Shown here: positions 1-23,000 of the stretch, piece by piece
How positions within the stretch are numbered: the stretch's first letter is position 1
Layout of the letters: each line of letters begins with the position of its first letter
NCBI GenBank assembly: GCA_029571225.1
Contig: JAKPTF010000035.1
Location: 12,575 to 76,574 of the forward strand
Reading direction: 5' to 3'
DNA: 64,000 nt
Source of the DNA: Candidatus Omnitrophota bacterium
GTDB taxonomy: Bacteria > Omnitrophota > Gorgyraeia > Gygaellales > Profunditerraquicolaceae
Program-made: the position numbers and the translations under genes
The notes under the pieces: generated by a model
Databases searched by the model: none
The model's input: only the letters and a program-made list of their open reading frames with translations
Told to the model about the DNA's origin: nothing

Positions 1-180
1 CTGCTTCAGCGCGGTCAAAGCGCCCGCATTCTCGAAGATCGTATTGGCGCCGATGACCAGCGCACCCTGGGTTTTTTGTTCGGCGCGCACCGCATTCACG
101 ACATTGCCGAAATACGTCGAAACCGCCTGGTACACGGCCTGATCCATCTCAAACAACGGCGCGGGCATATTCGTTGCAAC
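1..180 (-). repeat. Shared C-terminal domain, copy 1 (partial, continues beyond window), preceded by KDGG at 181-189
   Basis: ...GRVLKDGGVATNMPAPLFEMDQ...QGALVIGANTIFENAGALTALKQ matches GALVIGANTIFENAGSIAALTQ (PGI-like) and GAVILGANAIMENAGSIAALEK (FBA-PFK-GAPDH). The DNA at 25-65 is also close to 7795-7830. Confidence 0.8.
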
Positions 181-7179: not shown

Positions 7180-7217
7180 TGTACTCCTCCCATGTTAGGA
7201 CGATTTTAAAATATCGG

Positions 7218-10073
7218 TTATATCTTGTTCAATGTATCTTCGAATATCACCTGGAGTCTGGCTATGTCATCGCTGACCGCAACCAGCGGAATATCCGATA
7301 TCTGAGCTGTTAATTCATTAAGGGACTTGGCATCCGCCTCGCTGATCATGCCCCTGTCCTTAAATGCCTGCACCATTTTGGCGAACTGCGCTCTCGTAGT
7401 GCCGACGTCGAATATAATGGCGATCGCCTTGGCGATTGCCAGCGGGACTGCGTTGATCTGTTTGACCGCCCCTGCCGTCCGCGCGGTCGAAACATGGACC
7501 ATCTGCAGCTCGCGATTATTGTTGAAGAATACGCTTGCATCGGGTACCTTGTACTCATCCTTGATATTATCGAGATCGAGATCCGAGTTGATGAGCACGA
7601 CTTTTCTGGGTGATATTTTGAGCTTCTCCATTGCCATGAGGGTTTCGCCCAGGCCCGTGTAGATTGTCGCTATTTTGTCAACGCCCAGCGCCTTTAACGC
7701 TGCGACGTCATCGTTATTCCTGGCCCATACGGCTATGGTGAGGACATTGGCCGCGTCGCGTGCCTGAGTGAGCGCTGCAATGCTGCCCGCGTTCTCGAAT
7801 ATGGTGTTGGCACCGATGACCAGCGCTCCTTCGATCCCTTCTATTTCGCGAACGCCCTTGATGATACCTTCATACATAAATGACGTTGCGCTGTACACGT
7901 TTCGGTCGGCGTCCTCGATGAACGCGGCAGCTTTACCAACAAGAGAATCGGCCGCATCCCGTACCCGTGCGAGGTCCAGATACGCCTTGACCTTGGAGAA
8001 AAAGTCCGCATACGCGCTTTCGACCTCAGGGGTCATCTGCTCGGCAACGAACAATACCGCTTTGCGCGGATCGAGCGAAGTGTACATCGCCTTGACCGTG
8101 CCGATGGTCTGGGCGAAAAGCAGGTTATCGTCGAATGGCACAGCCGGCTGGGGATTATTCAATGACGTAAAATATGTGGAAAAGAACATGTTCCTGCCGT
8201 CCTGGATGTTCTGCTGGTACGAATGGTTCTTATCCGGCCCTTCACCGAGTTTCGAAGGTATCCGGAGGCCGCGGGTAAATATGTCCCGGCGGGCGTCTTC
8301 AAGAATCCTCGTCATGGCAGGGCTCAGCTTGCCGTATGAAGACAACTCAGCGGCATTGAACTCGGTCTCGCCTGCTTTGGCCTTCTGTTCCAGAATCTGG
8401 GTGATTGCCGCATACACTGCAGCCGCGTTCTGCATATCCGCGCCCATTCTGCGCACCTGCGCGTCCAGAGCATCGGCAGTGATAATCCCTGACATGACAA
8501 GCGGCGCATAATACAGCGTGAATGCGTTTAAGTAATCGGCCGAAAACGGCGCCCATGCTGCCAGAACATCCTGTTTGGTTTGCCCGGAATCCTTCATGGC
8601 TTGAGCAATCGCCTTTGATTCTTTTTTGTATGCTTCGACGCCCGGTTGATTCACAAACCTGATATCCCATAAATAACCGATCGTCGCTACCATGCGCTGC
8701 AATCCGAGCATAACCCCGCCGATATCGGTAATATCCTTGATATTGATCTCCAGGGTCGGATACCCGTTTTCCTGCAGATACTTCCAGAATTCCCTGTTTG
8801 TCTCTGTTGCGCCGAGGTTAATCCTTAGGAAAACGCGGTCATTCTCATCAGCCGGCTTCAAAGACGCTTTCCACTGGTCATTGTCCGTTCCCAGGTCTTC
8901 TCCGTAAAAGACCGTGACGCCTTTTCCATCCTTGCCGAGCGATTCCTCGAATAGTTGTTCGGCCCACATAGGCAGAGCATTCAGTTTTTTCGGCACCAGC
9001 ATGGTCAGCTTGTCTTGTTTCAGATTTCTGGCGCGCACGAAGATCTCTGCCCCCATTTTCAGAAAATCGCCCTCACTGAGGCCCGAATTCATCCGCACGG
9101 CGCTCTTTAATATCGGCTCGATATCATCAGCCCCGGGCGTCAATGACCACGGAAGCATGAATATATTCGTGGTCGGCGCGGTAAACCGTCCCCCCACGTC
9201 CTTGAGATTATATACTTTGCCGGGGTTGACATCGTTCATCTGGATATATGCCCCCTGGCCTTTTTTGACATGGTCCCCATCCCACGGGCTGCCGGGATCG
9301 GTCACGTAAAACAAATGTTTTTCCGGGCCGGACACTGCGTATGCTTCGAATAATTTCCTGAAATATTTCTCGTGCTCAGTGGTTTCCTGGGTGGTCGCTG
9401 TCTTTGACATGAAAACCGCAACGGTTTTTTCCAAACCCGCCTTCATGTCATTACCCTCGGCACGCGCGATCTCATCGAGTATGGCTTTTATCGCGGCAGG
9501 ATCGGTGGTCCTCAGGCTATAGAACGGAGTACCTTCAGAATCGGGATCAAATGTTTGTTTGACCAGCTCCACGCTTAAGCCTGACCCGCCCATTCCACAG
9601 AACACCGCGTATTTAAAGCGGTTTACCAGCATTAAATTTTTAAGCCCTGTCGCCTGCCAGGGGACATATTCGTCAGCGCGCGCCAGATCGTCCAGAATAG
9701 CCTGGGCATTCCTCACGGTCCACCCAAGGCGAGAGGTAACGCCGTCTTCCTCATATCCCCACGCCGCGAAATCGCTGTCCGCCGACTCAAGCCGCTCGTT
9801 CATGCGCTCGGCCTTCAATCGTTGCATAAGCGTTTCGACTTCCCGTTTAACATTCACCGGCTTTCCGCCGTCTTTCAAAAGCGATAAGCGGCTGATGCCG
9901 AGATCCTGGCCAAGACTGTGTAAGCGCGAATTGCTCTGCTTTGCCGAAACCGGCCGGAGGTTATTGCCAGCAGCATAACCAGGAACAGCAATGCTATCGA
10001 CAAAAAAAGCCGCGCTCATGGCTACGGCTATTGCTTTACGAACGCGCCTTAAAGTTTCCGTCGAAGCAGGCAT
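7218..10073 (-). CDS. Glucose-6-phosphate isomerase (PGI/SIS family)-like protein with signal-like leader and shared C-terminal domain, 951 aa
   Basis: ORF track entry. GGGGGAGA sits upstream of the ATG. PGI motifs: FCGMGGSGLS, FMSKTATTQETTE, VGGRFTAPT, EESLGKDGKG, GPDKNHSYQQNIQDG. The N-terminus RKAIAVAMSAAFFVDSIAVPGYAAG is signal-like. Confidence 0.88.
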   Translation of the reverse strand: MPASTETLRRVRKAIAVAMSAAFFVDSIAVPGYAAGNNLRPVSAKQSNSRLHSLGQDLGISRLSLLKDGGKPVNVKREVETLMQRLKAERMNERLESADSDFAAWGYEEDGVTSRLGWTVRNAQAILDDLARADEYVPWQATGLKNLMLVNRFKYAVFCGMGGSGLSVELVKQTFDPDSEGTPFYSLRTTDPAAIKAILDEIARAEGNDMKAGLEKTVAVFMSKTATTQETTEHEKYFRKLFEAYAVSGPEKHLFYVTDPGSPWDGDHVKKGQGAYIQMNDVNPGKVYNLKDVGGRFTAPTTNIFMLPWSLTPGADDIEPILKSAVRMNSGLSEGDFLKMGAEIFVRARNLKQDKLTMLVPKKLNALPMWAEQLFEESLGKDGKGVTVFYGEDLGTDNDQWKASLKPADENDRVFLRINLGATETNREFWKYLQENGYPTLEINIKDITDIGGVMLGLQRMVATIGYLWDIRFVNQPGVEAYKKESKAIAQAMKDSGQTKQDVLAAWAPFSADYLNAFTLYYAPLVMSGIITADALDAQVRRMGADMQNAAAVYAAITQILEQKAKAGETEFNAAELSSYGKLSPAMTRILEDARRDIFTRGLRIPSKLGEGPDKNHSYQQNIQDGRNMFFSTYFTSLNNPQPAVPFDDNLLFAQTIGTVKAMYTSLDPRKAVLFVAEQMTPEVESAYADFFSKVKAYLDLARVRDAADSLVGKAAAFIEDADRNVYSATSFMYEGIIKGVREIEGIEGALVIGANTIFENAGSIAALTQARDAANVLTIAVWARNNDDVAALKALGVDKIATIYTGLGETLMAMEKLKISPRKVVLINSDLDLDNIKDEYKVPDASVFFNNNRELQMVHVSTARTAGAVKQINAVPLAIAKAIAIIFDVGTTRAQFAKMVQAFKDRGMISEADAKSLNELTAQISDIPLVAVSDDIARLQVIFEDTLNKI
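7221..7931 (-). repeat. Shared C-terminal domain, copy 2 (about 237 aa, ends VIFEDTLNKI)
   Basis: GALVIGANTIFENAGSIAAL...VWARNNDD...IATIYTGL...DLDNIKDEYKVPDASVFF...INAVPLAIAKAIAIIF...GMISEADAKSL...IPLVAVSDDIARLQVIFEDTLNKI. It is collinear with the 1726-aa protein tail. Confidence 0.85.
7974..9776 (-). other. PGI-like catalytic region
   Basis: Covers aa about 100-700 of the 951-aa protein. The PGI motifs listed for the CDS occur in canonical order. Confidence 0.75.
9864..10073 (-). other. N-terminal leader: signal-like segment + NLRP + KDGG
   Basis: MPASTETLRRVRKAIAVAMSAAFFVDSIAVPGYAAGNNLRPVSAK...SRLSLLKDGG. DGG codons at 9864-9872 were checked in the DNA. Confidence 0.6.
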
Positions 10074-10162: not shown

Positions 10163-13100
10163 TTAAATCTTGTTGAGCGTATCTTCGTACACGGTCTGCA
10201 TTGCTGCGACTTCGTCGCTGACAGACACCAGCGGCACATCGGCCAGCTGCGCGGCGAGCTGCGTGATGTTAAGCAGGTCTTCCGAGCTGATGAGGCCTTT
10301 GTTCATATACGCAGCGGCCATGTTCTGGAGCTGCTGTCTGACCGTATCCTCGGTATTGAAGATCATGGCGAGTGCCTTTGCCATGACAAGCGGCATCGCA
10401 TTGATGCGTTTCTGCGTGACGGCCGCGCGGGATCCGGTTACGCGCACGTTCTTCACCTTTGCCTTTTCGAAGAACAGCGACGCATCGGATACGGTAAACT
10501 CGGCTTCGATATTGTCCATATCGGCATCCGCGCTGATGAGCGCGATCCTGGCCTGCGGGATCTTTGCCGCGGTCACTGCCTCAAGTGCCGCCTTCAAACC
10601 AACATGGATCGTCGCGATCCGGCCGACCCCTAATGCCTCAAGGGTCAGCTTAGCCGCGTCGTCCTTTGCCCATACGCTGAAGTCCACAACGCCTGCCGCA
10701 TCTTTTGCTTTCTCGAGCGCCGCGATGCTGCCGGCGTTTTCCATGATGGCGTTGGCGCCGAGGATAACCGCGCCCCTGGCGTTCTGGACATCGCTGATTG
10801 ATTTGACGAGATCATCGAAGTTCAACGCGCCTGCATTGTACACGCTTGCATCGCTCTTAAGCACAGTCTCGATGAGATCGGCGATATCGACCATTTCGGG
10901 AAGCACCGTCTCTGTTTGCGCAAGCGCAACGGAGGCGCCTCCGTCCTTTGCATAGTCGCCATTGACGAGGGCGCGCATTCTCACGCCGTCCACCATCCAC
11001 GGTGACCATTTGGAGATCATCTGGTTGGGAGCGGCTGACTGGTTGTCATACAGGCCTTTGATGATCACGGTCTTCTTGTTTTCCAGCACCTGGATCAGCA
11101 CGCTGTCGATGATTGATATATTGTTCCAGCCGACGACCGCATTGACATCGAGCGGGCCAGGGTTGACCTCTGGATCGCCCTCATAGAATTTCACCACTCC
11201 GTCCGACTTGTTGAGCGCGAAATCCTTCAAAGCGGCACGGACCTCCTCCACGGTAGTTTCTCTTTTCAGGTTCAGGGTCACTTCCCACAGGGACGCAGAA
11301 ACCGTATCCGTGCGCACAGCGGTTATCTCGAACTTGCCTTTGAGCTGCGGTATCATCTTGAACAGGTTCTTCTTGGCCCCGGTGGAGGCGGGAATGATAT
11401 TGTCGCGGATCGAATCTCCGCGGGCAATATCAAGCGGGTCGCGCGCCCTCTTGCTCTTCATGGGGAAAGTCTCGTTCGAATCGGTCTCCGAATGGATGGT
11501 CAGGCCGGTCCCGTTGACGATACCGAACTCGTCCCACATGGCCTTGATGACCGAGATCATGGCGTTGGACGTGCAACTGAGCGTGTCAACGATCTTGACA
11601 TCCGGCCCGATCTGTTTGCGCATGGCAGAATACAGCGCTTCTTTGAACACGGCGCTGACGGATTTATCGACCGTGTCGGCGCTGACGCCTTCCTGAAGGA
11701 ACTTTTCCTTGAGCATATTCTTCACCGCGTCGGTGTTGACCGGGGAGGCGGCGACAACGGGGAATCCGGCTTCCATGAACTCCTTGAAAATGCGCGGCTG
11801 GACCTTTTCGTCAGTCGGGCCGTAATACGATACCACATCCGGCTTGACTCCGAGTGTCCTGACGGTATCGAGCACCTGCTGATTCGTCGTTTCTGGGCCG
11901 AAATACGGAATCTTTATATCGGGCCTTCCTATATTTTTGTCGCCCGGCACGAAGATGAAATTGACCTCGACGCCGTCAACGACCCTGCGCTCGTCCTTGA
12001 GCACGCGCATACCTTTCACCTGGTACGGCCCGAACGGGCCGTTGTACCTGCTGTTCATGCGCACGAATTCCTCTGCGCTGGCTTCTTTGCCGCCCTTCAT
12101 GGACTTGAGAGCCGCCAGATTGACGCCCGGCTCCCAGTTCTTATAGAAAAGCGCAAACGCTCCGGCGCGGAAAATAAGCGCGTTCGCCGCGATGACCACG
12201 ATGTTCTGGTCCTGCAATGCCAGATCAAGCTTCTTGGGCGTATTGCTTTTCGCAAAAACGCCCATTCCGGCAAGGATCTTGACCTGCGCAAGCTGCCGGT
12301 CATCGATACGGTGCAGGATCCTTCTGATCGACTGCATGACTTCCTGGTTATCGCCGCTTTCCTTCTTGATTGTATTCAATTTCCACAGAACAGCCTTCAT
12401 TTCATCAAGGCCAAGGGACAGTATCTCACCCGGCTTGAGCTGATACAAACGCTTGACCGCAGCCTGATACCGCAGTTGATTCATAGCTGCCTTACCAAGC
12501 TTGAGGTTTGTTTTTTCATTGACAAGCGCCATATTCGCCAGCAGGTATTCATCGCGGTGGGCGCCTTTGTAATCCAGCTGCCTGCCGCCGAGTTCCTGAT
12601 CGAACGGTATGGACTTGATCTGGCCCTTATAGGCGTAGAGCAGCTGATTGTTCTGAAGGTCGGCGATTTTCTCAACAGCCGCTTTGCCGAGCATGCCGGT
12701 CATTTCCTCGTCAAGTTTGGAAATATCAGCCGAGCGGAAAAGATAATCGGCCTTGCCTGCGAGGCTGATGTCGATTTTATCTTCCTTGAGCGCCGTCTTT
12801 ACCACGGCCGCGACGATTAAACCGGCGTTCTCGAGTTTGGGATGACCGAAATCGTCAACGCCGGCTTTCATTGATTTAATGAACGCCGCTTTGGCAACCG
12901 GATCGCTGTTGAACGCCGCCAGCAGCAGCTTGACATCGGCATTGCGGGGCTTGACGACTTCAAGGTCTCCGTTGTCGTTCAGCCTGAAGCCGTCGGTCGC
13001 GATGCTGGCTCCTTCAGCTACGACGACGACGCCGTATTTGTTCTGCTTGTAATACGCTCGCAGATCATCCACCAGCTTCTTCAGATCCACCATCTCTTCG

Positions 13101-15313
13101 GGGATCAGGGTACGGGTAGCACCGACATTGGCGCCGATGCGCGCCGCAACAAACCCTGCGCTTCTGCCGAACACTTCGCCGATGAGAATCCTTTTTGTCG
13201 ATATGGCGTCGATTTTTCCGGCTTCGAAGGCGTCCGTAGCGGCCCGGGTAAAGCTGTCAAAACCATAGGTCTGCGCATCCGGTTCTGGAAGCGCGATATC
13301 ATTGTCCATGGTCTTGGGCAGGCCGATAAAAAGGAATTCAGGATGCTCTTTCTGCAGCTTTGCCGTAACGCCATTGGTATCGTCGCCGCCCAGGGTAACA
13401 AGGCCGTCCAGATCGAGCTTTTTGATATTCTCCCAGACTTTCTGCGCGTCACCTTCCTTTTTATACGGATTGGTGCGGCTTGTCTTTATGAATGTGCCGC
13501 CTTTTTTCTCCCACTTTTCGGCTTCCGAAAGGCGTATCGCCCTGGCCTGCGCCACAAGATCGTCTTTGATGAGGCCGGCCCATCCTTCGGGGATAGCAAC
13601 GATCTCGATACCGTTCTTCAGACCTTCGCGCACCATCGCTGCAAGGACCTTGTTATGCCCTGACGCGGGTCCGCCGCCGGTTAACACTCCAATCCTCTTG
13701 GGTCCGACCAACTGTGAAAATTTGACCCCCTGGCGGTCGGTAACGACCTGCTCCTTATACCTGATACCGGTGATAAATTCCACGGCATCGGCAACGGTCG
13801 AGTTCTCTTTGCCGCCGATCTCGCCGACTTCGGCTTCCAACCCGGCGTCCTCGGGAATAAAACCGGCAAGAAATGCGCTCACAAGCACGTTCAAGCGCGT
13901 GGGCATGAACGACGCGTCAAGCGCAAAGACGGCATGATCTTCTGCAACCTGCTTCTTTACCTGAAGCATGGCCTTGTTGACTGCCTTCATCGCTTTGCCC
14001 ACGCCGGGCGCTGCGTTGAATGCTTCGTCCTTTAAGGCCGCATTGAACATGGCTTCTCTTTTCGCGATGTCTTTTTCAGCCAGTATCCTCTCGAACAGCT
14101 CCGCAACCGCATTCTGCGCCCCCGTGTCCTTCAGGAATGCTTCATCGACTTTGACGGTGACGTGGTCCGACTTGTTCATATAATCGCGGAAACCCTCTTT
14201 CATCGCGGCTGCTTTGGTGTTTGCCGCAAACCTGGCGACGTTATCGAGGCTGTATCCGCCCGGCCAGGTGTAATCGAGTTCGCTCATGGCTTGCTGGAAC
14301 ACGACCACACTGCCGGTCTTTTTTGCCGCGCGTATGATGCCGGGCAGGCTGAGCGGATGGCGTATATTGCAGCACATGATCGCCTTATCCGTTCCTTCGA
14401 GCGCCTTGAACACATGATAACCCTTGAGCGACGAAAAATCGGACGGGTATTCCAGGCCGTTGGCCTGATAATAATCCCTGACCATCTGCGCCGTGCCGTC
14501 AGAGCCAAAACCGATCATGTGCTCGGTCGCCGATTTCTCGGTCGCGGCGTCGATCTTTTCGATAAGGCGCGCGGGAAGCCCCAGAAGCTCCTGATGGAAA
14601 TCGCCGATGACCATTTTCAGCTCTTTGCCCAGAAGCTTGTCGAGGTCTTTGTCTTTTCCTGCGACATACACGCTGTTCTTGGCTTCATCGCTGCGGGGAG
14701 AAACCTTGTATTTCTTTTCCACGTCCGCGGTCTTGGCGATCGTCGCGTCGATCATGCGGTTGACGATTGATTTGGCCGTCGCGTCTCCGTTCTGCGCTTC
14801 GGCAACAAGCGTTTCCCAGATGATATTCTGCCAGTTCGTGCCGACGTGAGCGGCGCTGATGCCGACATTGCGCAAGGCCTGGAGGTTCTCAATGGGAGTA
14901 CCGGTAACGCCGTGCTGCACGATCTTGACGCCGTAGGGTTTGATCGCTTCGTAAATGGCGCCGGTCATCTTCAGGTTCATCTGCGTCTTGATGAGATTGC
15001 CTTCGGCATCGTAGTTGTTGCCGTGGGCGGTGCCGTTATTGATCGCAAGACGCTGGATCATGCGCGGCAGGTAATCAGCAAGCCCCTTGCCTTTGCTCAC
15101 CACGATGAATTTCCCGGTCGCCAGCGAACCGCCGTCCTTGCCGAGAAACTCGCTTTTCATGGCCAGAGGCTGATTGGTATGGTTGGCCGATCTGCCCCGG
15201 AGGTGGTCAAATGAGACGACGCCTGCCATCGAGGCGGTGTTGAACGTGAATATGCCGATAATAAGCAATGCCGTTATCCTGAATAACACCCGAGCGAACC
15301 GTGAACCGTTCAT
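10163..15313 (-). CDS. Triple-enzyme fusion: class II fructose-bisphosphate aldolase (permuted) + phosphofructokinase (PPi-type motifs) + GAPDH, with leader and shared C-terminal domain
   Basis: The ORF track gives 10163..15343 (1726 aa). I prefer the ATG at 15311-15313 (MNGSRFARVLF...) because AAGGAG lies about 8 nt upstream and it removes the overlap with the upstream stop (15330-15332). Domain motifs are listed in the sub-features. Confidence 0.88.
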   Translation of the reverse strand: MNGSRFARVLFRITALLIIGIFTFNTASMAGVVSFDHLRGRSANHTNQPLAMKSEFLGKDGGSLATGKFIVVSKGKGLADYLPRMIQRLAINNGTAHGNNYDAEGNLIKTQMNLKMTGAIYEAIKPYGVKIVQHGVTGTPIENLQALRNVGISAAHVGTNWQNIIWETLVAEAQNGDATAKSIVNRMIDATIAKTADVEKKYKVSPRSDEAKNSVYVAGKDKDLDKLLGKELKMVIGDFHQELLGLPARLIEKIDAATEKSATEHMIGFGSDGTAQMVRDYYQANGLEYPSDFSSLKGYHVFKALEGTDKAIMCCNIRHPLSLPGIIRAAKKTGSVVVFQQAMSELDYTWPGGYSLDNVARFAANTKAAAMKEGFRDYMNKSDHVTVKVDEAFLKDTGAQNAVAELFERILAEKDIAKREAMFNAALKDEAFNAAPGVGKAMKAVNKAMLQVKKQVAEDHAVFALDASFMPTRLNVLVSAFLAGFIPEDAGLEAEVGEIGGKENSTVADAVEFITGIRYKEQVVTDRQGVKFSQLVGPKRIGVLTGGGPASGHNKVLAAMVREGLKNGIEIVAIPEGWAGLIKDDLVAQARAIRLSEAEKWEKKGGTFIKTSRTNPYKKEGDAQKVWENIKKLDLDGLVTLGGDDTNGVTAKLQKEHPEFLFIGLPKTMDNDIALPEPDAQTYGFDSFTRAATDAFEAGKIDAISTKRILIGEVFGRSAGFVAARIGANVGATRTLIPEEMVDLKKLVDDLRAYYKQNKYGVVVVAEGASIATDGFRLNDNGDLEVVKPRNADVKLLLAAFNSDPVAKAAFIKSMKAGVDDFGHPKLENAGLIVAAVVKTALKEDKIDISLAGKADYLFRSADISKLDEEMTGMLGKAAVEKIADLQNNQLLYAYKGQIKSIPFDQELGGRQLDYKGAHRDEYLLANMALVNEKTNLKLGKAAMNQLRYQAAVKRLYQLKPGEILSLGLDEMKAVLWKLNTIKKESGDNQEVMQSIRRILHRIDDRQLAQVKILAGMGVFAKSNTPKKLDLALQDQNIVVIAANALIFRAGAFALFYKNWEPGVNLAALKSMKGGKEASAEEFVRMNSRYNGPFGPYQVKGMRVLKDERRVVDGVEVNFIFVPGDKNIGRPDIKIPYFGPETTNQQVLDTVRTLGVKPDVVSYYGPTDEKVQPRIFKEFMEAGFPVVAASPVNTDAVKNMLKEKFLQEGVSADTVDKSVSAVFKEALYSAMRKQIGPDVKIVDTLSCTSNAMISVIKAMWDEFGIVNGTGLTIHSETDSNETFPMKSKRARDPLDIARGDSIRDNIIPASTGAKKNLFKMIPQLKGKFEITAVRTDTVSASLWEVTLNLKRETTVEEVRAALKDFALNKSDGVVKFYEGDPEVNPGPLDVNAVVGWNNISIIDSVLIQVLENKKTVIIKGLYDNQSAAPNQMISKWSPWMVDGVRMRALVNGDYAKDGGASVALAQTETVLPEMVDIADLIETVLKSDASVYNAGALNFDDLVKSISDVQNARGAVILGANAIMENAGSIAALEKAKDAAGVVDFSVWAKDDAAKLTLEALGVGRIATIHVGLKAALEAVTAAKIPQARIALISADADMDNIEAEFTVSDASLFFEKAKVKNVRVTGSRAAVTQKRINAMPLVMAKALAMIFNTEDTVRQQLQNMAAAYMNKGLISSEDLLNITQLAAQLADVPLVSVSDEVAAMQTVYEDTLNKI
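10166..10906 (-). repeat. Shared C-terminal domain, copy 3 (about 247 aa, ends TVYEDTLNKI), preceded by KDGG at 10937-10945
   Basis: GAVILGANAIMENAGSIAAL...VWAKDDA...IATIHVGL...DMDNIEAEFTVSDASLFF...INAMPLVMAKALAMIF...GLISSEDLLNI...VPLVSVSDEVAAMQTVYEDTLNKI. Confidence 0.85.
10994..12286 (-). other. GAPDH-like domain (divergent NAD-binding half + catalytic half)
   Basis: VDTLSCTSNAMISVIKAMWDEFGIVNGTGLTIHSETDSNE (catalytic Cys and His context) and IIPASTGAKKNLFKMIPQLKGKFEITAVRTDTVSASLWEVTLNL. The N-terminal half is only weakly Rossmann-like (VKILAGMGVFAKS). Confidence 0.72.
12644..13702 (-). other. Phosphofructokinase domain (GGDD / PKTMDND motifs typical of PPi-dependent PFKs)
   Basis: KRIGVLTGGGPASGHNKV, TSRTNPYK, LVTLGGDDTNGV, IGLPKTMDNDI, GRSAGFVA. 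Confidence 0.8.
13754..14446 (-). other. Class II FBA, N-terminal two-thirds (placed second)
   Basis: KGYHVFKALEGTDKAIMCCNIRHPLSLPGIIRAAKKTGSVVVFQQ corresponds to the FbaA N-terminus (...FALPAVNCVGTDSINAVLETAAKVKAPVIVQFS). KSDH corresponds to HTDH. GLEAEVGEIGGKENS corresponds to TLEIELGCTGGEEDG. Confidence 0.7.
14744..15121 (-). other. Class II FBA, C-terminal third (placed first in the polypeptide)
   Basis: GTAHGNNY corresponds to E. coli FbaA GNVHGVYK. VQHGVTGTP corresponds to VFHGGSGST. AAHVGTNWQNIIWETL corresponds to KMNIDTDTQWATWEGVL. Confidence 0.7.
15128..15313 (-). other. N-terminal leader: signal-like segment + HLRG + KDGG
   Basis: MNGSRFARVLFRITALLIIGIFTFNTASMAGVVSFDHLRGRSANHTNQPLAMKSEFLGKDGG. 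DGG codons at 15128-15136 were checked in the DNA. Confidence 0.6.
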
Positions 15314-15329
15314 CGTTTCTTCTCCTTTT

Positions 15330-16859
15330 TTAATCTTCCGCAAGATATGTATCCTCGAGTTCTCCCTGTTCCCCCCGGAGAACGGAATAATAGATTGACG
15401 GGTCAGACCGCTGCGATATCGAAGGGGTAACCACGGCGTAGGAATAACCGTGCTCCTTGAACAACCTGCTCAAACCGGATGTGTGAAAACCGCCGGTAAT
15501 GACAGCGACATAGCTGCTGTCCGATGCGGTATTGATCTTCCGGGCGATATTGCGCATGAACGCCTGTTCGCGGTCGATCCCGACTTTATAAAAACTGTCG
15601 AGCGCATCGAAATTTTCATCGATGACCGTAGACGCGACGGGCCGTGACGGAAGGCCGTACCTTCTGCATGAATCGGATAGAAACACGATCCATCCGGCGG
15701 TCACATAGCGGGAGCGGTCGGCCTGCATGGCGTCGTATTCTGCGGGCGTCAGGTCGAGCCGCAGGAACTGATCGAGGGTATCGAGCGCCTCCGAAATGTC
15801 GCTCAGGCGGCGTTCGTCATTATTAACAAAAAGCTCCTGCCGCACACGCGCCTCCAGTTCGGAGATCTCCCTGATCAATTTCTCCGCATCGATATTCCTG
15901 CCCATAGCGACATACCGCATGTATGCGTCGAACTGCGGATAGGCTGCCGCCAGATCAAGGTGGTCCTGCGCGGCATTGCGCAAAAAGTCATAAAATTCCT
16001 GAGCGGATATCTTTTTGTCCTTGAAATCCGCCGTCTTATCTATCAACTCCTTAATCGAGGCGCCCTGCAATTTCTGGGCAAGGTCCTTGATGAATGCGCT
16101 CCGCTGGGACTCCGCCTGTTTGAAATCGATCGTCTTTTCAAGTTCGAGGCTTTCCCTGAACAAATTGACCTGCTGGCATTCGGACAGAGAGATACTCTTC
16201 TTTTGCGCCGATTCGGCAAGATATGTAACGTATTTGACCAGCGGTAACGCTTTATGCTTGAATGCTCGTTTCTGCGCATCGAGCTCAATCAGCTCGGGAT
16301 TGAACATATGCGGCTTGAGCGCCTCGACAATAGCGGCCAGCCCGTTGATATCGTTCAATCCCTGCTCCTTGTATGCCTCTATATTAAGGAAGGAATCCAG
16401 GTTGCTGTCGTATAATGCGGGGTCTTCAATGCCGAAAAGCTCAAGGTTATGGTCGGAAACGATGTCGAGGTATTCTTCCCCGGATATCTTGCCGTCGCGG
16501 AGGTATTTTTCAGCGACTTCCTCGCGCGCCTTTTTATCCGCAAAGTCCCTTAAGAACGAAAGGCTCACGTCGCCGCTGCCCCCTTCGACCATGATGAGCC
16601 TCAATTTCTTTTCGCGGGCAAGATAATCAAGGATCTGCGCAAGGTTCTTTTGTGCTTCGTAGTTACAATGGGCGTCCTGGATCTGTATTATTGCAGGGCC
16701 GGGCCGTCCTGCCTGTGGCGCTTCGAAGACTTCCTTGATTGTGCCGAACTGGGAAGGTATCTGAAGATTTTTTAAAGGGGTGCTTGGAAAAACGGGATTG
16801 ACATAAATTAAGGAAAGCAATAAGAAGAATGGAATAGTTTTTTTAAGTTTTTTATTCAT
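15330..16859 (-). CDS. Secreted/anchored hypothetical protein (about 509 aa), family not recognised
   Basis: The ORF track gives 15330..16991. I prefer the ATG at 16857-16859 (MNKKLKKTIPFFLLLSLIYVNPVFPSTP, a clean signal peptide). The 44-codon upstream extension is encoded by a hairpin and T-tract and looks non-protein. Conserved-looking strings: IQIQDAHCNYEAQKN, IMVEGGSGD, AVITGGFHTSG. Confidence 0.7.
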   Translation of the reverse strand: MNKKLKKTIPFFLLLSLIYVNPVFPSTPLKNLQIPSQFGTIKEVFEAPQAGRPGPAIIQIQDAHCNYEAQKNLAQILDYLAREKKLRLIMVEGGSGDVSLSFLRDFADKKAREEVAEKYLRDGKISGEEYLDIVSDHNLELFGIEDPALYDSNLDSFLNIEAYKEQGLNDINGLAAIVEALKPHMFNPELIELDAQKRAFKHKALPLVKYVTYLAESAQKKSISLSECQQVNLFRESLELEKTIDFKQAESQRSAFIKDLAQKLQGASIKELIDKTADFKDKKISAQEFYDFLRNAAQDHLDLAAAYPQFDAYMRYVAMGRNIDAEKLIREISELEARVRQELFVNNDERRLSDISEALDTLDQFLRLDLTPAEYDAMQADRSRYVTAGWIVFLSDSCRRYGLPSRPVASTVIDENFDALDSFYKVGIDREQAFMRNIARKINTASDSSYVAVITGGFHTSGLSRLFKEHGYSYAVVTPSISQRSDPSIYYSVLRGEQGELEDTYLAED

Positions 16860-16863
16860 GGGC

Positions 16864-16924
16864 AAATAAAAAAGCCACGACTCACTGAATCCTCTTTTCC
16901 GGAGGCATTCAGTCATCCGTGGCC
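16864..16924 (-). terminator. Imperfect long hairpin followed by TTTTTTATTT (candidate intrinsic terminator of the giant gene, or a leader attenuator)
   Basis: Minus strand: GGCCACGGATGACTGAATGCCTCC-ggaaaa-GAGGATTCAGTGAGTCGTGGC-TTTTTTATTT. The stem has about 17 pairs with a few mismatches and one bulge. It ends 4 nt before the ATG at 16859. Confidence 0.45.
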
Positions 16925-16945
16925 ATTCCATACTGTATGTGCTTC

Positions 16946-16965
16946 TTTTGAAAGCGCTTTCAAAA
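16946..16965. promoter_or_regulatory. Perfect 20-nt palindrome TTTTGAAAGCGCTTTCAAAA
   Basis: Read directly from the sequence. It lies between the promoter-like element and the hairpin. It could be an operator or a small stem-loop. Confidence 0.35.
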
Positions 16966-16981
16966 CGCCTTACTATTAAAA

Positions 16982-17010
16982 AAGATACCATAGAACACCA
17001 TTTCTGTCAA
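16982..17010 (-). promoter_or_regulatory. Sigma70-like promoter candidate (TTGACA - 17 nt - TATCTT)
   Basis: The minus strand has TTGACA at 17005-17010, a 17-nt spacer and TATCTT at 16982-16987. It sits in the AT-rich 217-nt gap after the giant gene. Confidence 0.3.
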
Positions 17011-17076: not shown

Positions 17077-20000
17077 TTAAATATTTGTCGAGAAACAGCC
17101 GTCTATCCATACAACAAACTCGATCGCTGTTTTTTCAAGGACATTGTTGTTAAACGCTCCCGCAAGAAAGGCTTTGATGCCGCCGTCTTTGTTCTCAGGC
17201 GCATTGTCGTTCTTATTGTCTTTCCCACCCTTATCATATTTCACATAAAATCCTGAAGCAGTTCTCTGAGTCTTCTGCGCATCCGTGCACGCAGCCCGCA
17301 TAGTATCAATAGCCGCGTCTATATTGCCTGCTCCCTGAACCAACGACCGCACGTGATCGGTCTCATACCCGCACCGGCACCAAAGATGCGCAAGCTGTGA
17401 TTTTTGTTCGCAGGTCGCTTTAAGGCCCAGAAGATAACAAATATCCTCTTCGCTGAACACGTAGCTGCCGGTATACTCTGATCGCCGACAGCACAGCTCG
17501 ATCAAAAAACTTGTTGTTTCGGCATCGAGGACAATAAGGCTTGCTTTGCTCATGTTCCTGATCTGAGTCTTATTGAACAACGGTTTATTGCCTCTATAGA
17601 TAAGCGAAAGCAGGAATGCGTTTCGCTCCCGCCGAAGCCAGTACGCGATGCTCTTCAGAGGCCCGGCATTCATTCCTTTGCGAGATTCCATGAATTCGCC
17701 AAGCCTCACATACGGGCTTATATTATCGGGCACCAGGCCTGCTTCCACCAGCGCCGTAACAAGCTTGCCCATGCGCGTATTGCAAAGTTCAGCCAGCCGT
17801 CTGCTGTCCATCCGCAGGTCCTTAAGGAAAAGGAACTCGGGGTCCCCATACTCTCCTGCCGGATTGTTTATCCGGCAACACAAATTGAACCCCTGCTTTC
17901 TCCAGAAACCGGTCAAGCCTGCCAGATTATTCTGCGAAACGAGCACGGACGCAAAATCGCTCCCCATGGCCCTGCATACCGGTTCCATGAATTGTTTATA
18001 CAAAAATGTGCCAATGCCTTTCCCACGCAGGGCCGGGTCGAGCATAAGCTCGATCTGTGCGCGCCGCTGGGTATCTATTTTGGTAAAGTGCATCATTGCC
18101 AGCGGCATCTCCGTTGGTTGCGCGGTTCGGTCTCGCAGGAATACGGAATACGCAAAACCATCCCGTGATGTCACGACTGCCCGGAGCGAAGCGATCCCGG
18201 TCAGCTTTCGCAGCTGTCGTATCGGCAGTTCCGATTCGATGAAGGTCTTGACGGGAATTGCGCCTCCGTCCGAACGGCGCACCGCGTATCCAGCCCCGGA
18301 CCGCCGGATATTGACAGCAGGGTCACGCCGCGGATTGAACACGTAATAATATTCGCTCCTGTCCTCGCAGGGCAGGGACAATTCCCGGCTACGATAATCG
18401 TCGCTGTCAAGCGCCTCCTTTGCGTCTGCGGTAAAGCAGGCCCCTCCTGCAGTGAATACGTACGTACGGCTATCCATTCTGACTTTCTTCGACTCGCTCA
18501 AGGCGCTTTTTCTTACCAGATACTTGAGATAAATCCGCCTCTCCAGAAGCTGTTCGTACAGACACTGTTCCCCGTGCAGAGTCGCATCGGGATAACTTCT
18601 GCAAAAAGCCAATGCCTCCGCATAGATACGGCAGCTGGTGCTCAGGGTAAAACCTGCCTCAGGCGAATAATCGAACAGTATCTGTAATGCGCTGCACGGC
18701 CACCTGAAGAGGTATCGGTCAAGCGGGATCTCGTCGCAGGCCCTGCGCCCTGACGGACAGAACGCAAGGGCAATGTCTTTCCTGCCATGCGCATGTGTAG
18801 CTCCGAATTTGCGCTGCAACAATGTATTGATTTCAGGGAATCCGCGCTCTGACCGGGCAAAGCAGCACGCCCCGTCTGCGCATCTGATCCTGCCTGCCGT
18901 TTCCCGGGAAAAACGAAGTTCTATACCGTGATTTCCGCCGTCTCTGCCTCTTTTCCCCCCACCAGGATCGTCCGGAAGAACCTCAGATTCGGCCTTTGAA
19001 CGGGTATAATGCACCACGACGGCTGCACAGAATGCCGCTGTCAATATCGCGCTCAAAATGAAAACCGTATTGGACGGCAGCGCAATCAATCCCATGTCCT
19101 CAATGCCCGAAAGGAACAAATAAACCAGGAGGCCGGCGGTAATCAGTTTGCTTACCCATCTCAGGCATGTTGAGATCATCGGATTGTGCTGCAGCGTAAG
19201 CTGGCAAAGGGATTTTGATACGCATACGTCCAGCACAATGACCAGTAAGACCACATTGATTATGAAAGCCGCAAAGGTAATCCCCGTGCCGAACCGGCTG
19301 AGCAGCAGCGGCGTTATTCCGAGCAATCCGGGGCCCGCGATCAAAGGAAAAGAAACCGGGATTACGCAGAACCATTTATAGGGAACGGCCTCGAAATATC
19401 TGCACACATGGAGGCGGGGCATGAAGAAATCAAGACAGAATATTCCCAGGACGATGACGCAGGCGATCTTCAATATCCCCAATTGGAACAGGGACAGGGA
19501 AAGCCCGAGCGCCATGAAGGCAATCACAAAAACGATTGATATCGGCATCGACAGCAACAACAACCTCCTGATGCTGCCGCGCGTCAAATTAAGATGCTGG
19601 GCAATCGCACGGAAAACGATCGCGGTTCCGATGATATTGATCGCCATGCCGACTACAAATACCGCCATGGCCAACTGGTAAAGCAGGCCCATCATGCCTC
19701 CGTCCTGCTGCGCCTCAAGTCGCCGGAGCATATCGATCGACCGAGCCTGCGCATAAAGGCCTTTGCCTCTGAGTACCTCCCGGTAAAAAACCAGTATTTC
19801 AATCCACGTCCGGCCGGAAAAGTAAAGTTTCTGGTTGCCGAACCTGACCGGATGGCCGTTATCTATCAGGAAAAGCCCTGTTGATTCTTCAACGACCTTA
19901 ATGACTTCTTCCGGCGAGACCGATAGAGAGACCTCCTTGATGAGCCGGCGGTAGAATAACATCCGTTCCTGCTGGGATACGAGCCGCTTCGACCATGGAG

Positions 20001-23000
20001 CGCGCCTCTTGCGCGTCTCGATACGCGCGAGTATGTTATCGTACTGGCGGATCAGTATTCCGAACAGGACCTGATGAAGAAACGCATGGACGCTTTGATC
20101 CGTACAGGCGAGCTCGCTGTAGAGAGCGCCCGGGGAGGACAGTTTTCTTTCGAAACGCAAGCTTGCGCGCTCGAACCTGCGTTGAGCACGCTCGATCGCA
20201 CGGCTGCTGTTCGCCGGATATACGGACACGATATCAAAACCGACGTGGTTATTCTCGAATACGACGAGCGCGCCGATATCCGGGTTGATGGCCACAAAAC
20301 GGCCGTCATTGATGAAGTAATTCGTATCATGGCTCAAGACCACCTCATACGGCATTGCCTCATACATGCGTAGCAGCTCAAGGACCGGTTTATTGCGGTC
20401 GTACAGCGGGCTGCGGCTCGGCCATTCGTATAAATGGCGGGAAAAATGCCAGCACAGATTTTCAACGCCGGACCATGCGATCCTGCGAGCGCCTCCGTCG
20501 AGATGGTTATTGCCGTTCTTGATGAATTCAATATACGTGGGAAGCGCTTCGACCACATCGTTGTCCCCTTTGACGAGGATCGCGTACATGCCGAGGCTGC
20601 GGGCCGGATGGATATCACTGTCAAGATTATCCCCCACCATAATGGCCTGCGAGCTGTCGATATTAAAATCCCGCAACACAATCCTGAACGCTTCCGGGTG
20701 CGGCTTTTCTTTCTGAGACGGGAAATCGTCCTGCGTGATGATACGGGAAAAATATTTCTTGATCTTAAGGTATTCGAGCGTCTTATATGCCATCGCTTCG
20801 CAGTTGTTCGTCAGAAGCACCAGGGGATAATCCTCTGACAGCCTATGAAGCACACCCTGCAGCTCGGGATTCGGCTGAAGGTACCGGGAAAGATCAATAC
20901 TGGCAGTCAAGTATTCATGATAATCGTGGGCGCTCAATCCGAACATGCGGCATATCCTGCTATGGCTCTTTTCGCTGCCGACGCGCTGTTCGATCTCCGC
21001 GGCGGATAAAAACGGCCTTCGGCACCTGATGAACTCGAGCAGCGCCTGGTCATATTTTTGTGCGAGCTCATCGCTGTCGTAGAGCGTGTTATCGAGATCA
21101 AAGATGATAACCGCGACGCTTCCCGAAACCCGCTGCTGGACAGCCGGCAAAAACGTAGAAAAGAAATAGTACACCAGACCCGAGAGCTGCTTGGGCCCCG
21201 GATGCTGCTGCTGGTAGTAGATCTTGCGCAGCCGCGCAAGATATCGTTTTTCAATGGGGATCCCCGCGTTATCGACAACTACGATGAATTCAGCCAGCTC
21301 CAGAGGATGCGCCTTGAAATATTCATAACTGATGCGGCGGCCGCCCCGTTCCCCTTGATGGGCAAGATGCGCCAGCTCGTGACGGAGGATATCTTCCTGG
21401 ACGACCCGGGGCAGGGTCAGAAAATACGGATGGAAGCAGATGGTATTGGTCTCCCGGACGCTGTGGGCGACCTTGGACCAGCGCAAAGACTCTTGCGCCG
21501 AGATAAGGACGTTGAATTCCGGCGGGCCGCGGATGATGCCGCGTGCCGTATGGACCAGATTGGCGAATTCCTGGAAGCTCCAGAAATAATCATACACGAT
21601 GGCTCCCGGCTTGATGGCATATCTGCCTTTGGAGATTGAAAAGGATAGGCTCGTCGGTATCCTTTTTGCGTATTTCTTTTGGCCTTCCTTTCGGGCGTGC
21701 GCCGGTATGACAAGCGGGTAAAAATGACGCCGATGGCCGTTATTATACATTCTAAAAATCTTCCCGATCAGGATCAGAGAATTCACCGCAAGCCAGACTG
21801 AAATACCGATGCTGATGGCCAGGTCGAAGAACGGCATGCCGGTGACGAAGATGGCGATCCCCGCTGCTATTGCGGCGATAGATGCCGCAAGGTCCCCGAG
21901 AACATGGATGTATGCCCCTTCCATGTTGATATCGGTGCCCGAATGGCCGCAGAGGAACCGGTACCCGACCAGATTCACGATCATGCCGAAGAAAGCGATG
22001 ATGAGAACCTCAGCCCCCCCCACCGGTAGCGGCTTGAAAAACCGGACTAATGCGGATATGATGATATACCCCGATGTTATCCCGAGGATCAGCGCGTTAA
22101 TGCCCGCTGCTGCCAGCTGGAGGAAAGAGTTGCCTTCGTATTTCGGTGCAAGCCCGAACCGGTGCGTGGCCCAATGCGCGACCAATGCGCAGCTCAGCCC
22201 TGAAATATCCGTTATCATATGGCCGGCATCGGCGACAAGCGCCAGGGAATGGAACCAGAGGCCGCCGATGACCTCGATAAGCGCATATCCGGCGGTAATC
22301 GCCAGGACGATCATGAGCACACGTGTCCCGGCGTGATGATGTTCGTGGCCGCCATCCCTGAAACCATTACGATGGTTGACGTTGCCGTTGAACGTCTCGA
22401 CCATCTCCGGGTATTCGGCATAGGCAGCATAGCCCTCGCCGATCACCTTTCTTGTCGCCGCGAATATGACCGCGGAAAATACCAGGGTCTGCGTCATGCC
22501 AATAGCAAACATGAAACCGAATACCAGATAAGCGCCGATAGACATCACAAAACTGCGCAGGAAATCGCGGCGCGCCGTGCTGCGGCGGTAGCCCCGCAGG
22601 ATACGCTGGGCATAATTGAGCGGCCCGCCGACCATGCTCACAAGAATGATATCAAGAATTATATTGACCGCCATGTTCCCGCCAAGCATCAATGCAAGCG
22701 GGTCTGAAAGATACATTTTAGCCGCGACAATGGGTATGCATGACAGGCCGCTCGCGAACAAATCATTGGCGAGCTTCTTACGGCGCACATAACCGTACGC
22801 GCTTATAAGCTTTCGCACGCGCGTGGAAATATCAGCGATCCGGGGACATACAAGCTGATCGCCTACATATCCGCACGCTTTCATATCGACAAGGGCATTG
22901 CGCACGATCACAAGGCTGATCCAGACGCAGGAAAGCACAATACTGATCTGCCCGATGCCCTGTCCGAGCGACATGCCGATAACGGTTGCAAGTATCCCCG

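What the first reader, a model, noticed from the sequence alone, without database searches (positions are those of the whole stretch)
13754..15121. Class II FBA appears circularly permuted (C-terminal third encoded before the N-terminal two-thirds)
**Motif order in the polypeptide**
- First, at aa about 104-178: GTAHGNNY, VQHGVTGTP and HVGTNWQ. These correspond to E. coli FbaA GNVHGVYK, FHGGSGS and NIDTDTQW, from the last third of the barrel, and include two Zn-ligand His positions.
- Later, at aa about 300-515: the N-terminal strand motifs, then KSDH (corresponding to HTDH) and EAEVGEIGGKE (corresponding to EIELGCTGGEE).

The putative metal and catalytic residues look retained, so this may be an active permuted barrel.
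Basis: partly seen in the sequence, partly recalled or inferred. Interest (0 to 1): 0.6.

Follow-up and report, generated by a model that had tools for sequence, protein, structure and literature searches.

The report
Circularly permuted class II aldolase barrel
A glycolytic enzyme (class II fructose-bisphosphate aldolase) in an Omnitrophota bacterium is encoded with its last three barrel strands ahead of its first five; the catalytic residues are all kept, the rearrangement is conserved in related genomes, and likely evolutionary intermediates survive in the same phylum.

Summary

**Location.** The finding covers aa ~75-530 of a 1,726-aa ORF (window 10163..15343, minus strand).

**Rotated order.**
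- A profile built from 108 ordinary stand-alone class II FBAs is covered exactly once: positions 210-354 first, then 20-204 (E 2.6e-59).
- Close relatives with the normal order match both blocks at 52-58% identity, in swapped order.

**Structure.**
- AlphaFold gives one compact barrel (pLDDT 92.6, pTM 0.91) ordered β6-β8, C-terminal helices, 15-aa linker, β1-β5.
- The cut sits in the turn of a lineage-specific β-hairpin.
- Sequential fold searches do not return the protein's own family. The same search on a normal-order relative returns it at once.

**Function.** All three Zn-binding histidines and Asp109, Asn35, Glu172 and Glu174 equivalents are invariant in 19/19 permuted proteins. dN/dS is about 0.1.

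**Spread.**
- 12 ortholog clusters are fused to PFK and a GAPDH-like part, and one to PPDK.
- Six proteins carry a whole FBPase domain between the two blocks.
- Tandem N-C-N-C and N-C-FBPase-N-C relatives exist.
- A second permutation with a different cut occurs in a sister subfamily.

**Verdict.** No published description was found. This is a new variant of a known enzyme. Activity is untested.

The parts
10163..15313 (-). Gene for the cpFBA–PFK–GAPDH-like fusion protein. The longest ORF starts at a TTG at 15343; the probable start is the ATG at 15313, which is aa 11.
   Evidence: ORF list. The 97%-identical ortholog P0121 starts at MNGS, which is aa 11, with the same 16-nt gap after the upstream gene. 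Pfam finds FBA, PFK and Gp_dh_C.
15218..15313 (-). N-terminal leader with a hydrophobic signal or anchor helix (aa ~11-42)
   Evidence: Read directly from the sequence. The same leader type occurs on the downstream PPDK fusion and on homologs.
15128..15136 (-). DGG motif (aa 70-72) immediately before the aldolase C-block; a possible module delimiter or processing site
   Evidence: DGG occurs 37 times in the neighbouring giant ORF, against 4.1±1.9 in shuffles. It is conserved at this position in all 12 cpFBA-PFK ortholog clusters listed (DGN or absent in most C-FBPase-N forms).
14474..15115 (-). Aldolase C-block (aa 77-290): hairpin strand b, then β6 (aa 98-101, His107), β7 (aa 140-143, His144), β8 (aa 162-167), then the C-terminal helices
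   Evidence: HMM 210-354. 53% identity to P0001 310-514. AF2 strands. Residue map.
14429..14473 (-). Linker of about 15 aa (aa 291-305) joining the ancestral C-terminus to the ancestral N-terminus
   Evidence: It lies between the two BLAST/HMM blocks. pLDDT is about 97 in the AF2 model. It has the highest dN/dS of the domain (0.13-0.19).
13706..14428 (-). Aldolase N-block (aa 306-546): β1 (Asn326), β2, β3 (Asp393-His394), a lineage-specific helical insert, β4 (Asp476), β5 (Glu503, Glu505), α5, and hairpin strand a (aa 541-545)
   Evidence: HMM 20-204. 56% identity to P0001 59-305. AF2 strands. Residue map. Junction anatomy.
12464..13699 (-). Phosphofructokinase domain (aa ~549-960), with GGDD and PKT motifs typical of PPi-dependent enzymes
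   Evidence: Pfam PFK 2e-54 and NCBIfam PFK families. The motifs are read from the translation. PPi dependence is inferred from established knowledge, not tested.
10979..12076 (-). Divergent GAPDH-like region (aa ~1090-1455), with the catalytic Cys (SCTSNA) and His (TIHSET) motifs
   Evidence: Pfam Gp_dh_C 9.6e-21, aa 1264-1388. TIGR01534 positions 139-329. No Pfam N-terminal NAD-domain hit.
10166..10945 (-). C-terminal tail after the second DGG (aa 1467-1726); no known family
   Evidence: No Pfam hit. Conserved in the ortholog P0123 (E 3e-28).

Best explanation
Amino acids ~77-546 of the 1,726-aa protein form one complete, probably active, Zn-dependent class II fructose-bisphosphate aldolase (β/α)8 barrel whose chain is circularly permuted.

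**Chain order.** β6-β7-β8 and the C-terminal helices come first. A ~15-residue linker then joins the ancestral C-terminus to the ancestral N-terminus. β1-β5 follow.

**New termini.** They lie in the turn of a β-hairpin that Omnitrophota aldolases carry between α5 and β6. One hairpin strand now opens the domain and the other closes it, and the model pairs them in a small sheet.

**Fusion.** The chain runs straight from the aldolase into a PPi-type phosphofructokinase and a GAPDH-like module, so three enzymes from the upper part of glycolysis (triose-phosphate isomerase lies elsewhere in the cluster) sit on one polypeptide behind a hydrophobic leader.

**Probable origin.** Duplication followed by truncation. 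Relatives in the same phylum show N-C, N-C-N-C, N-C-FBPase-N-C, C-FBPase-N and C-N arrangements.

**Shown:** the permutation, its conservation, retention of the catalytic residues, and purifying selection.

**Inferred:** folding in cis, enzymatic activity, the evolutionary route, and any benefit of re-orienting the barrel relative to the fused PFK.
For: **Permutation at sequence level**
- Rotated single coverage of a canonical profile.
- Swapped HSPs against ten homologs.
- Architecture table of 38 proteins.
- Rotation scan peaks at 228-240 residues, aligning 454-458 of 476 columns at 56-57% identity.

**Fold**
- AF2 pLDDT 92.6 and pTM 0.91, one domain, linker pLDDT ~97.
- The permuted model gets only 1 Foldseek PDB hit at E<=1e-3, with FBA 3q94 at rank 30.
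- The canonical-order homolog modelled at equal quality (pLDDT 92.4) gives 105 hits at E<=1e-3, topped by class II FBAs at E ~4e-12 and TMt 0.70-0.82.

**Function**
- E. coli Asn35, Asp109, His110, Asp144, Glu172, Glu174, His226 and His264 equivalents are invariant in 19/19 permuted proteins. The Glu182 equivalent is E or D in 17/19.
- dN/dS is 0.08-0.10 for the aldolase region against 0.05 for PFK.

**Conservation**
- 12 full-length ortholog clusters at 67-97% identity from JGI, ENA, NCBI and Logan.
- Conserved synteny.

**Breakpoint and origin**
- The breakpoint is identical in all three permuted architectures.
- Tandem intermediates exist.
- Permuted forms are one clade in the C-block tree.
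Against: - There is no experimental structure or assay.
- The AF2 alignment had to use block-wise fragments for the canonical homologs. Inter-block coevolution therefore comes from only 9 natural permuted rows, and AF2 has a strong TIM-barrel prior.
- The Asn286 equivalent is His (H166). This is lineage-wide and also present in canonical-order Omnitrophota FBAs. It could still mean altered substrate binding.
- The NJ trees have no support values, and permuted forms are paraphyletic in the N-block tree.
- The N-C-N-C protein P0148 has 99%-identical copies and could be an assembly artefact.
- Whether these genomes also hold an ordinary FBA is unknown.
Confidence: 0.85

Rival explanations
1. The two blocks are half-barrels that assemble between chains, as a domain-swapped dimer or oligomer, rather than within one chain. 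The gene would then encode a split aldolase rather than a true permuted one.
For: Class II FBAs are obligate dimers (established knowledge). In six relatives the blocks are separated by a ~465-aa FBPase domain, which shows the blocks tolerate long separation.
Against: The monomer AF2 model is one compact domain (pTM 0.91) with a confidently placed 15-aa linker. The linker length is conserved among the cpFBA-PFK orthologs aligned. This rival would not alter the fact that the gene order is permuted.
Confidence: 0.08
2. The permuted barrel is a catalytically dead scaffold or regulatory module within the multi-enzyme protein.
For: Asn286 is replaced by His. The Pfam score is low (42-48 bits). The GAPDH-like neighbour is very divergent.
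Against: All three Zn histidines and the Asp109, Asn35, Glu172 and Glu174 equivalents are invariant in 19/19 permuted proteins. dN/dS is ~0.1, similar to PFK. The Asn-to-His change and the low Pfam score are shared with canonical-order relatives (P0001 scores 44 bits).
Confidence: 0.07
3. It is an active permuted class II aldolase with a different substrate, for example tagatose-1,6-bisphosphate, sulfofructose phosphate or another ketose bisphosphate.
For: The family includes such enzymes, and they are among the top fold hits for the canonical homolog. The stand-alone relatives also hit the GatZ/KbaZ-like model. The His166 substitution lies at a DHAP-binding position.
Against: Direct fusion to PFK, whose product is FBP, and to a GAPDH-like module. 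Synteny with PGI-like, PPDK and TIM-PGK-enolase genes. All of this points to FBP.
Confidence: 0.1
4. It is an assembly or gene-calling artefact, such as a mis-joined tandem repeat.
For: These are metagenome-derived sequences, and one tandem relative has 99%-identical copies.
Against: The same architecture appears in 12 independent clusters at 67-97% identity from four data sources, on contigs up to 470 kb, with the same neighbours. The ORF is intact, with a leader upstream and PFK downstream, and is under purifying selection.
Confidence: 0.01

Closest known systems
Class II (metal-dependent) fructose-1,6-bisphosphate aldolase, Pfam PF01116 (e.g. E. coli FbaA 1B57, B. anthracis 3Q94)
   Same: Homologous over the whole barrel (E 2.6e-59 to a canonical profile). 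Same Zn ligands and catalytic Asp, Asn and Glu. Same secondary-structure elements.
   Different: Chain order is β6-β8, helices, β1-β5 instead of β1-β8. It carries a ~50-aa helical insert after β3 and a β-hairpin insert between α5 and β6, both shared with canonical Omnitrophota FBAs. Asn286 is replaced by His. It is fused to PFK and a GAPDH-like module behind a hydrophobic leader.
Canonical-order Omnitrophota multi-domain FBAs (P0001-P0009, P0142, P0144, P0145; FBA domains noted in 'Archaeovorin' giant proteins, bioRxiv 10.1101/2023.11.21.568195)
   Same: 52-58% identity per block. Same inserts, same His166, and the same habit of fusion to glycolytic enzymes.
   Different: Those have the N-block before the C-block. 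The paper lists the domains but does not mention any permutation.
Transaldolase versus class I aldolase, the classic natural circular permutation among aldolase-type TIM barrels (discussed in PMC2213659)
   Same: A (β/α)8 barrel whose biologically correct alignment with relatives is a rotation of βα units. Sequential aligners give misleading register-shifted matches.
   Different: A different superfamily and chemistry (Schiff base versus Zn). That case involves a shift of two units between families that are only remotely similar in sequence. Here the shift is five/three units between proteins still ~55% identical, and candidate intermediates are extant.
Permutation-by-duplication model of circular permutation (tandem duplication, then loss of both ends).
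   Same: The predicted intermediates exist in the same clade: N-C-N-C (P0148), N-C-FBPase-N-C (P0133-135, P0137, P0146), and C-FBPase-N (six proteins).
   Different: An unrelated enzyme domain (GlpX FBPase) sits between the duplicates in most intermediates. The order of events is not resolved.

Membership tests
Class II fructose-bisphosphate aldolase (PF01116) | Significant sequence match to the family profile | tested here: met
   41.8-47.6 bits against a gathering cut-off of 25.5. E 2.6e-59 to a custom profile of 108 members.
Class II fructose-bisphosphate aldolase (PF01116) | Three histidine Zn ligands (E. coli His110, His226, His264) | tested here: met
   H394, H107 and H144, invariant in 19/19 permuted proteins.
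Class II fructose-bisphosphate aldolase (PF01116) | Catalytic and substrate-binding residues Asp109, Asn35, Glu182, Asn286 | tested here: inconclusive
   D393 and N326 are invariant. The Glu182 equivalent E513 is E or D in 17/19. The Asn286 equivalent is His166 in all Omnitrophota forms, including canonical-order ones.
Class II fructose-bisphosphate aldolase (PF01116) | (β/α)8 barrel fold | tested here: met
Class II fructose-bisphosphate aldolase (PF01116) | Collinear β1-to-β8 chain topology | tested here: not met
   The order is β6-β8 then β1-β5. Sequential fold search does not retrieve the family, while the canonical control does.
Class II fructose-bisphosphate aldolase (PF01116) | Metal-dependent FBP cleavage activity | not testable with these tools
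   Needs an enzyme assay.
Natural circular permutant | Two segments homologous to complementary, non-overlapping parts of one domain, in swapped order relative to homologs | tested here: met
Natural circular permutant | Ancestral termini joined, and a single domain formed in cis | tested here: inconclusive
   AF2 predicts this confidently (pTM 0.91, linker pLDDT ~97). No coordinates or experiment were available to confirm it.
Natural circular permutant | Conserved and under selection, not a one-off artefact | tested here: met
   12 ortholog clusters plus other architectures. dN/dS 0.08-0.10.
PPi-dependent phosphofructokinase (fused neighbour) | Asp at the E. coli Gly104 position (GGDD) and Lys at the Gly124 position (PKT) | tested here: met
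   The motifs TLGGDDTNG and GLPKTMDND are read in the translation. The rule linking them to PPi use comes from my knowledge of the family and was not tested. NCBIfam scores are below the equivalog cut-offs.

The most novel reading that the evidence does not exclude
In Omnitrophota, class II aldolase barrels have been re-threaded at least twice, at different cut points. In one form the barrel is interrupted by a complete FBPase domain. Under this reading the re-threading is an adaptation to life inside DGG-delimited, leader-bearing multi-enzyme glycolytic polyproteins. The permutation moves the chain ends to a different side of the barrel so that the fused PFK (or PPDK, or FBPase) sits where intermediates can be handed on directly. 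The series N-C, N-C-N-C, N-C-X-N-C, C-X-N and C-N would then be a living record of permutation by duplication.
Probability: 0.25. Interest if true: 0.75.

Novelty: new variant of a known kind. Interest (0 to 1): 0.6.

Why it matters
**Protein evolution and design.** Natural circular permutations in which the permuted and unpermuted forms are still ~55% identical, and in which tandem and split candidate intermediates survive in the same clade, are uncommon. This set offers a direct test bed for the duplication-truncation model. It also shows how far a TIM barrel tolerates re-threading and domain insertion, which is of interest for protein design.

**Annotation.** The permutation, together with the fusion, weakens standard annotation. 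Pfam hits are flagged weak or faint. Sources name the protein only '6-phosphofructokinase'. Sequential fold search fails. Aldolase may therefore be under-called in Omnitrophota metabolic reconstructions.

**Biology.** It adds a concrete structural peculiarity to the poorly understood fused glycolytic proteins encoded next to the giant 'Archaeovorin' genes.

Tried and rejected
1. **Overlap relic.** I first read 'AMKSEFLGKDGG' (aa 61-72) as a leftover copy of hairpin strand 'YSELV' from a duplication. I rejected this. The downstream PPDK fusion, which has no aldolase, carries the same 'KTEILAPKDGG' leader element, and DGG sites in the giant ORF have similar contexts.
2. **In-silico permuted homologs for AF2.** I replaced them with exact block fragments.
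3. **De-permuted sequence against Pfam.** The total score did not rise (46.4 against 47.0 bits), because HMMER sums over stretches. The best stretch did become collinear across the junction, covering profile 102-268. This test is weak on its own.
5. **Common C-terminal tail domain.** Only weak similarity was found among the fusion proteins (best cross-architecture E 2.5e-5), so I make no claim.
6. **Literature.** Searches for circular permutation in class II FBA found nothing. The library does not cover most subscription journals, so this absence is not proof.
Full report
**Where it is**

The finding's coordinates (13754..15121) fall inside one long ORF on the minus strand, 10163..15343, of 1,726 aa. 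They correspond to aa 75-530. Pfam finds three families in this protein:
- class II FBA (PF01116), aa 96-209, matching only profile positions 166-266 of 277
- phosphofructokinase, aa 550-783
- the catalytic domain of GAPDH, aa 1264-1388

NCBIfam agrees for PFK and GAPDH.

**Checking the observation**

- Scanned on its own, the later segment (aa ~469-527) matches PF01116 positions 96-154.
- phmmer against PDB sequences gives the same inversion for four solved class II FBAs: the early part of the query matches chain positions ~195-252, and the late part matches ~102-157.
- I built a profile from 108 stand-alone ~359-aa class II FBAs retrieved. The window segment aa 61-548 covers it exactly once, in rotated order:
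  - HMM 210-354 matches aa 98-290
  - HMM 20-121 matches aa 300-402
  - HMM 121-204 matches aa 452-530
  - E = 2.6e-59, and a shuffled copy gives nothing
- A six-frame scan finds no other aldolase piece in the window.

So the two regions are neither two partial domains nor a duplicate. They are complementary halves of one domain.

**Comparison with close relatives**

The nearest database proteins (P0001-P0009, 41-59% identity, several labelled Omnitrophica) have the ordinary order. Every one gives two BLAST segments in swapped order. For example, ORF 305-546 = P0001 59-305 (56%, 6e-83) and ORF 77-288 = P0001 310-514 (53%, 2e-66).

A rotation scan of the window domain against the P0001 domain gives 255 aligned columns in native order. 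After moving the first 228-240 residues to the end it gives 454-458 of 476 columns, at 56-57% identity.

**Structure**

AlphaFold2 was run with an alignment of nine natural permuted orthologs plus exact block fragments of canonical homologs.
- The model has mean pLDDT 92.6 and pTM 0.91 and forms a single domain.
- In ORF numbering, the strands come in this order:
  - β6: aa 98-101
  - β7: aa 140-143
  - β8: aa 162-167
  - C-terminal helices, then a confidently modelled linker (aa ~291-305)
  - β1: aa 322-326
  - β2: aa 347-352
  - β3: aa 388-396
  - β4: aa 472-476
  - β5: aa 501-506
- A short strand at aa 81-84 is predicted alongside three strands at aa 527-545.

Sequential fold searches on this model:
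- Foldseek against the PDB finds one hit at E<=1e-3, and true FBAs appear only at rank 30 (TMt 0.23).

As a control I modelled the canonical-order P0001 domain at the same quality (pLDDT 92.4, pTM 0.91). Foldseek then returns 105 hits at E<=1e-3, led by class II FBA, tagatose-bisphosphate and sulfofructose-phosphate aldolases (E ~4e-12, TMt 0.70-0.82). The two models agree in DSSP state at 93% of aligned positions after rotation. The failure of sequential aligners is therefore due to topology, not divergence. I could not run a permutation-aware superposition because model coordinates are not exposed.

**Breakpoint**

Canonical Omnitrophota FBAs carry an insertion between α5 and β6:
'...EFITGIRYKE..V.D....YSELV-turn-G.PvvE..GKGLLDYGV..RLAINNGTAHG'.
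In the P0001 model this forms a small β-sheet.

In the window protein the N-block ends '...GIRYKEQVVTDRQGVKFSQLV' and runs directly into PFK ('GPKRIGVLTGGGPASGHN'). The C-block begins '...GKFIVVSKGKGLADYLPRMIQRLAINNGTAHG'. The cut is therefore in the hairpin turn. The same breakpoint is seen in every permuted relative.

**Is it likely to work?**

I aligned the protein to E. coli FbaA, fetched from NC_000913.3. Published residue numbers are one lower than gene-derived numbers. The equivalents are:

| E. coli residue | Window residue | Conservation |
|---|---|---|
| Asn35 | N326 | invariant, 19/19 permuted proteins |
| Asp109 | D393 | invariant, 19/19 |
| His110 | H394 | invariant, 19/19 |
| Asp144 | D476 | invariant, 19/19 |
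| Glu172 | E503 | invariant, 19/19 |
| Glu174 | E505 | invariant, 19/19 |
| His226 | H107 | invariant, 19/19 |
| His264 | H144 | invariant, 19/19 |
| Glu182 | E513 | E or D in 17/19 |
| Asn286 | H166 | His in all Omnitrophota FBAs, including canonical-order ones |

Nei-Gojobori dN/dS against three orthologous loci is 0.08-0.10 for the aldolase region (C-block 0.06-0.11, N-block 0.05-0.08). PFK gives ~0.05. Activity itself is untested.

**How widespread**

- A full-length search finds 12 clusters (P0121-P0132) at 67-97% identity with the same architecture, from JGI, ENA, NCBI and Logan assemblies, on contigs up to 470 kb.
- A GTDB representative MAG labelled Candidatus Omnitrophota carries it at 77% identity.
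- A block-order table of 38 proteins, with additions, shows:
  - C-N adjacent: the window protein, the 12 ortholog clusters, and P0139, which is fused to PPDK
  - C-[~465-aa GlpX FBPase]-N: P0136, P0138, P0140, P0141, P0143 and P0150
  - ordinary N-C: many proteins
  - N-C-FBPase-N-C: P0133-135, P0137 and P0146
  - direct tandem N-C-N-C: P0148, copies 99% identical
- An exhaustive phmmer pass over 1.84 billion cluster representatives finds only 121 proteins at E<=1e-3. Only the cpFBA-PFK representative aligns over the full query in one stretch.
- Neighbour-joining trees (no support values) put all permuted forms in one clade for the C-block and near the base of the long-hairpin clade for the N-block. 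With the shared breakpoint, this fits a single origin but does not prove it.

**A second permutation**

In a sister aldolase subfamily, P0227 (ordinary order, followed by PFK) and P0234 (FBPase followed by aldolase) match in swapped order: P0227 73-323 = P0234 856-1110 (49%), and P0227 333-682 = P0234 505-853 (44%). The cut lies between β4 and β5, near HMM position 150. P0221 shares that order, and P0245 is a tandem N-C-N form cut off by the contig end. Re-threading of these barrels therefore appears to have happened at least twice.

**Context**

All on the minus strand, the window holds:
- a PPDK fusion of at least 2,393 aa (1..7179)
- a PGI-like 951-aa ORF (7218..10073)
- the cpFBA-PFK-GAPDH-like gene
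- a 553-aa ORF with no family (15330..16991)
- an ORF of more than 15,639 aa that runs off the window (17077..63996)

Orthologous loci show the same order, continuing into a TIM-PGK-enolase fusion. Their giant genes are recorded at 19,746 to 30,339 aa.

A preprint on Omnitrophota giant genes ('Archaeovorins') lists FBA, TIM, PGI, FBPase and PPDK domains and proposes post-translational cleavage. It does not mention any permutation. Searches for circular permutation of class II FBA found nothing. The known aldolase-type precedent is transaldolase versus class I aldolase.

**Mechanism proposed**

- *Shown:* the gene encodes one complete aldolase domain in rotated order, conserved and constrained.
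- *Inferred, high confidence:* it folds in cis into a normal barrel, with the old termini bridged by the linker and the new termini in the split hairpin.
- *Inferred, moderate confidence:* it is an active Zn-dependent FBP aldolase working next to a PPi-type PFK. The GGDD and PKT motifs are present; the rule linking them to PPi use comes from my knowledge of the family.
- *Speculative:* the permutation arose by duplication and truncation, possibly through FBA-FBPase-FBA proteins, and persists because it places the fused partner at a different position on the barrel.

**Verdict**

This is a new variant of a known enzyme family, of moderate-to-good interest for protein evolution and for annotation of Omnitrophota metabolism.

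Noticed in passing
window 17077..63996 (minus strand): One ORF of more than 15,639 aa runs off the window end. It is built of many enzyme-like modules read by eye from the translation: TIM-like, repeated MoxR-type AAA, vWA, M50 peptidase, CoaE-like, ROK-like, CDF transporter-like, HAD-like and GNAT-like. It appears to be an Omnitrophota 'Archaeovorin'-type giant gene. Orthologous loci hold giant genes recorded at 19,746 to 30,339 aa.
   Followed up: partly
window 17077..63996, and ORF aa 70-72 (15128..15136) and aa 1467-1469: The tripeptide DGG occurs 37 times in the giant ORF, against 4.1±1.9 in composition-matched shuffles. The sites are spaced ~200-500 aa apart, often in a loose '(E/D)..L.P.KDGG' context. 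They look like module borders, but the modules were not mapped. DGG also flanks the aldolase-PFK-GAPDH core of the 1,726-aa protein. It may be a module delimiter or a processing site.
   Followed up: partly
window 15218..15313, window ~7000..7179, and homologs P0124, P0136 and P0139: The fused glycolytic proteins share an N-terminal leader: a hydrophobic helix, then a [S/N/D]-x-L-R-[P/G/A/T] motif, about 20 residues, then DGG. This suggests common targeting or processing for enzymes normally found in the cytoplasm.
   Followed up: no
window 1..10073 (minus strand); L003 and L004: A conserved cluster of giant fused glycolytic genes lies downstream: a PGI-like 951-aa ORF (weak Pfam hit, 25 bits), a PPDK fusion of at least 2,393 aa, and, in orthologous loci, a 1,530-aa TIM-PGK-enolase fusion.
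   Followed up: partly
window 15330..16991 (minus strand): A 553-aa ORF sits between the giant gene and the aldolase fusion gene. It is conserved in position in orthologous loci (511-528 aa) and has no Pfam family.
   Followed up: no
window 10979..12466 (ORF aa ~960-1455): The GAPDH-like part keeps the catalytic Cys and His motifs, but no NAD-binding N-domain is detected by Pfam. The ~280 aa before it have no family. Its function as a dehydrogenase is uncertain.
   Followed up: no
proteins P0234, P0221, P0227 and P0245 (not in the window): A second circular permutation occurs in a sister class II aldolase subfamily, with a different breakpoint (between β4 and β5), plus a tandem form. In that subfamily the ordinary-order proteins start with a stretch that phmmer aligns to the window protein's C-terminal helix and linker. 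The alignment spans query aa 208-318 in one stretch, so that helix may have moved as well.
   Followed up: partly
proteins P0136, P0138, P0140, P0141, P0143 and P0150 (not in the window): In these proteins the aldolase barrel is encoded in two pieces separated by a complete ~465-aa GlpX-type FBPase domain. This is a discontinuous TIM barrel combined with the enzyme that acts on the same substrate.
   Followed up: partly
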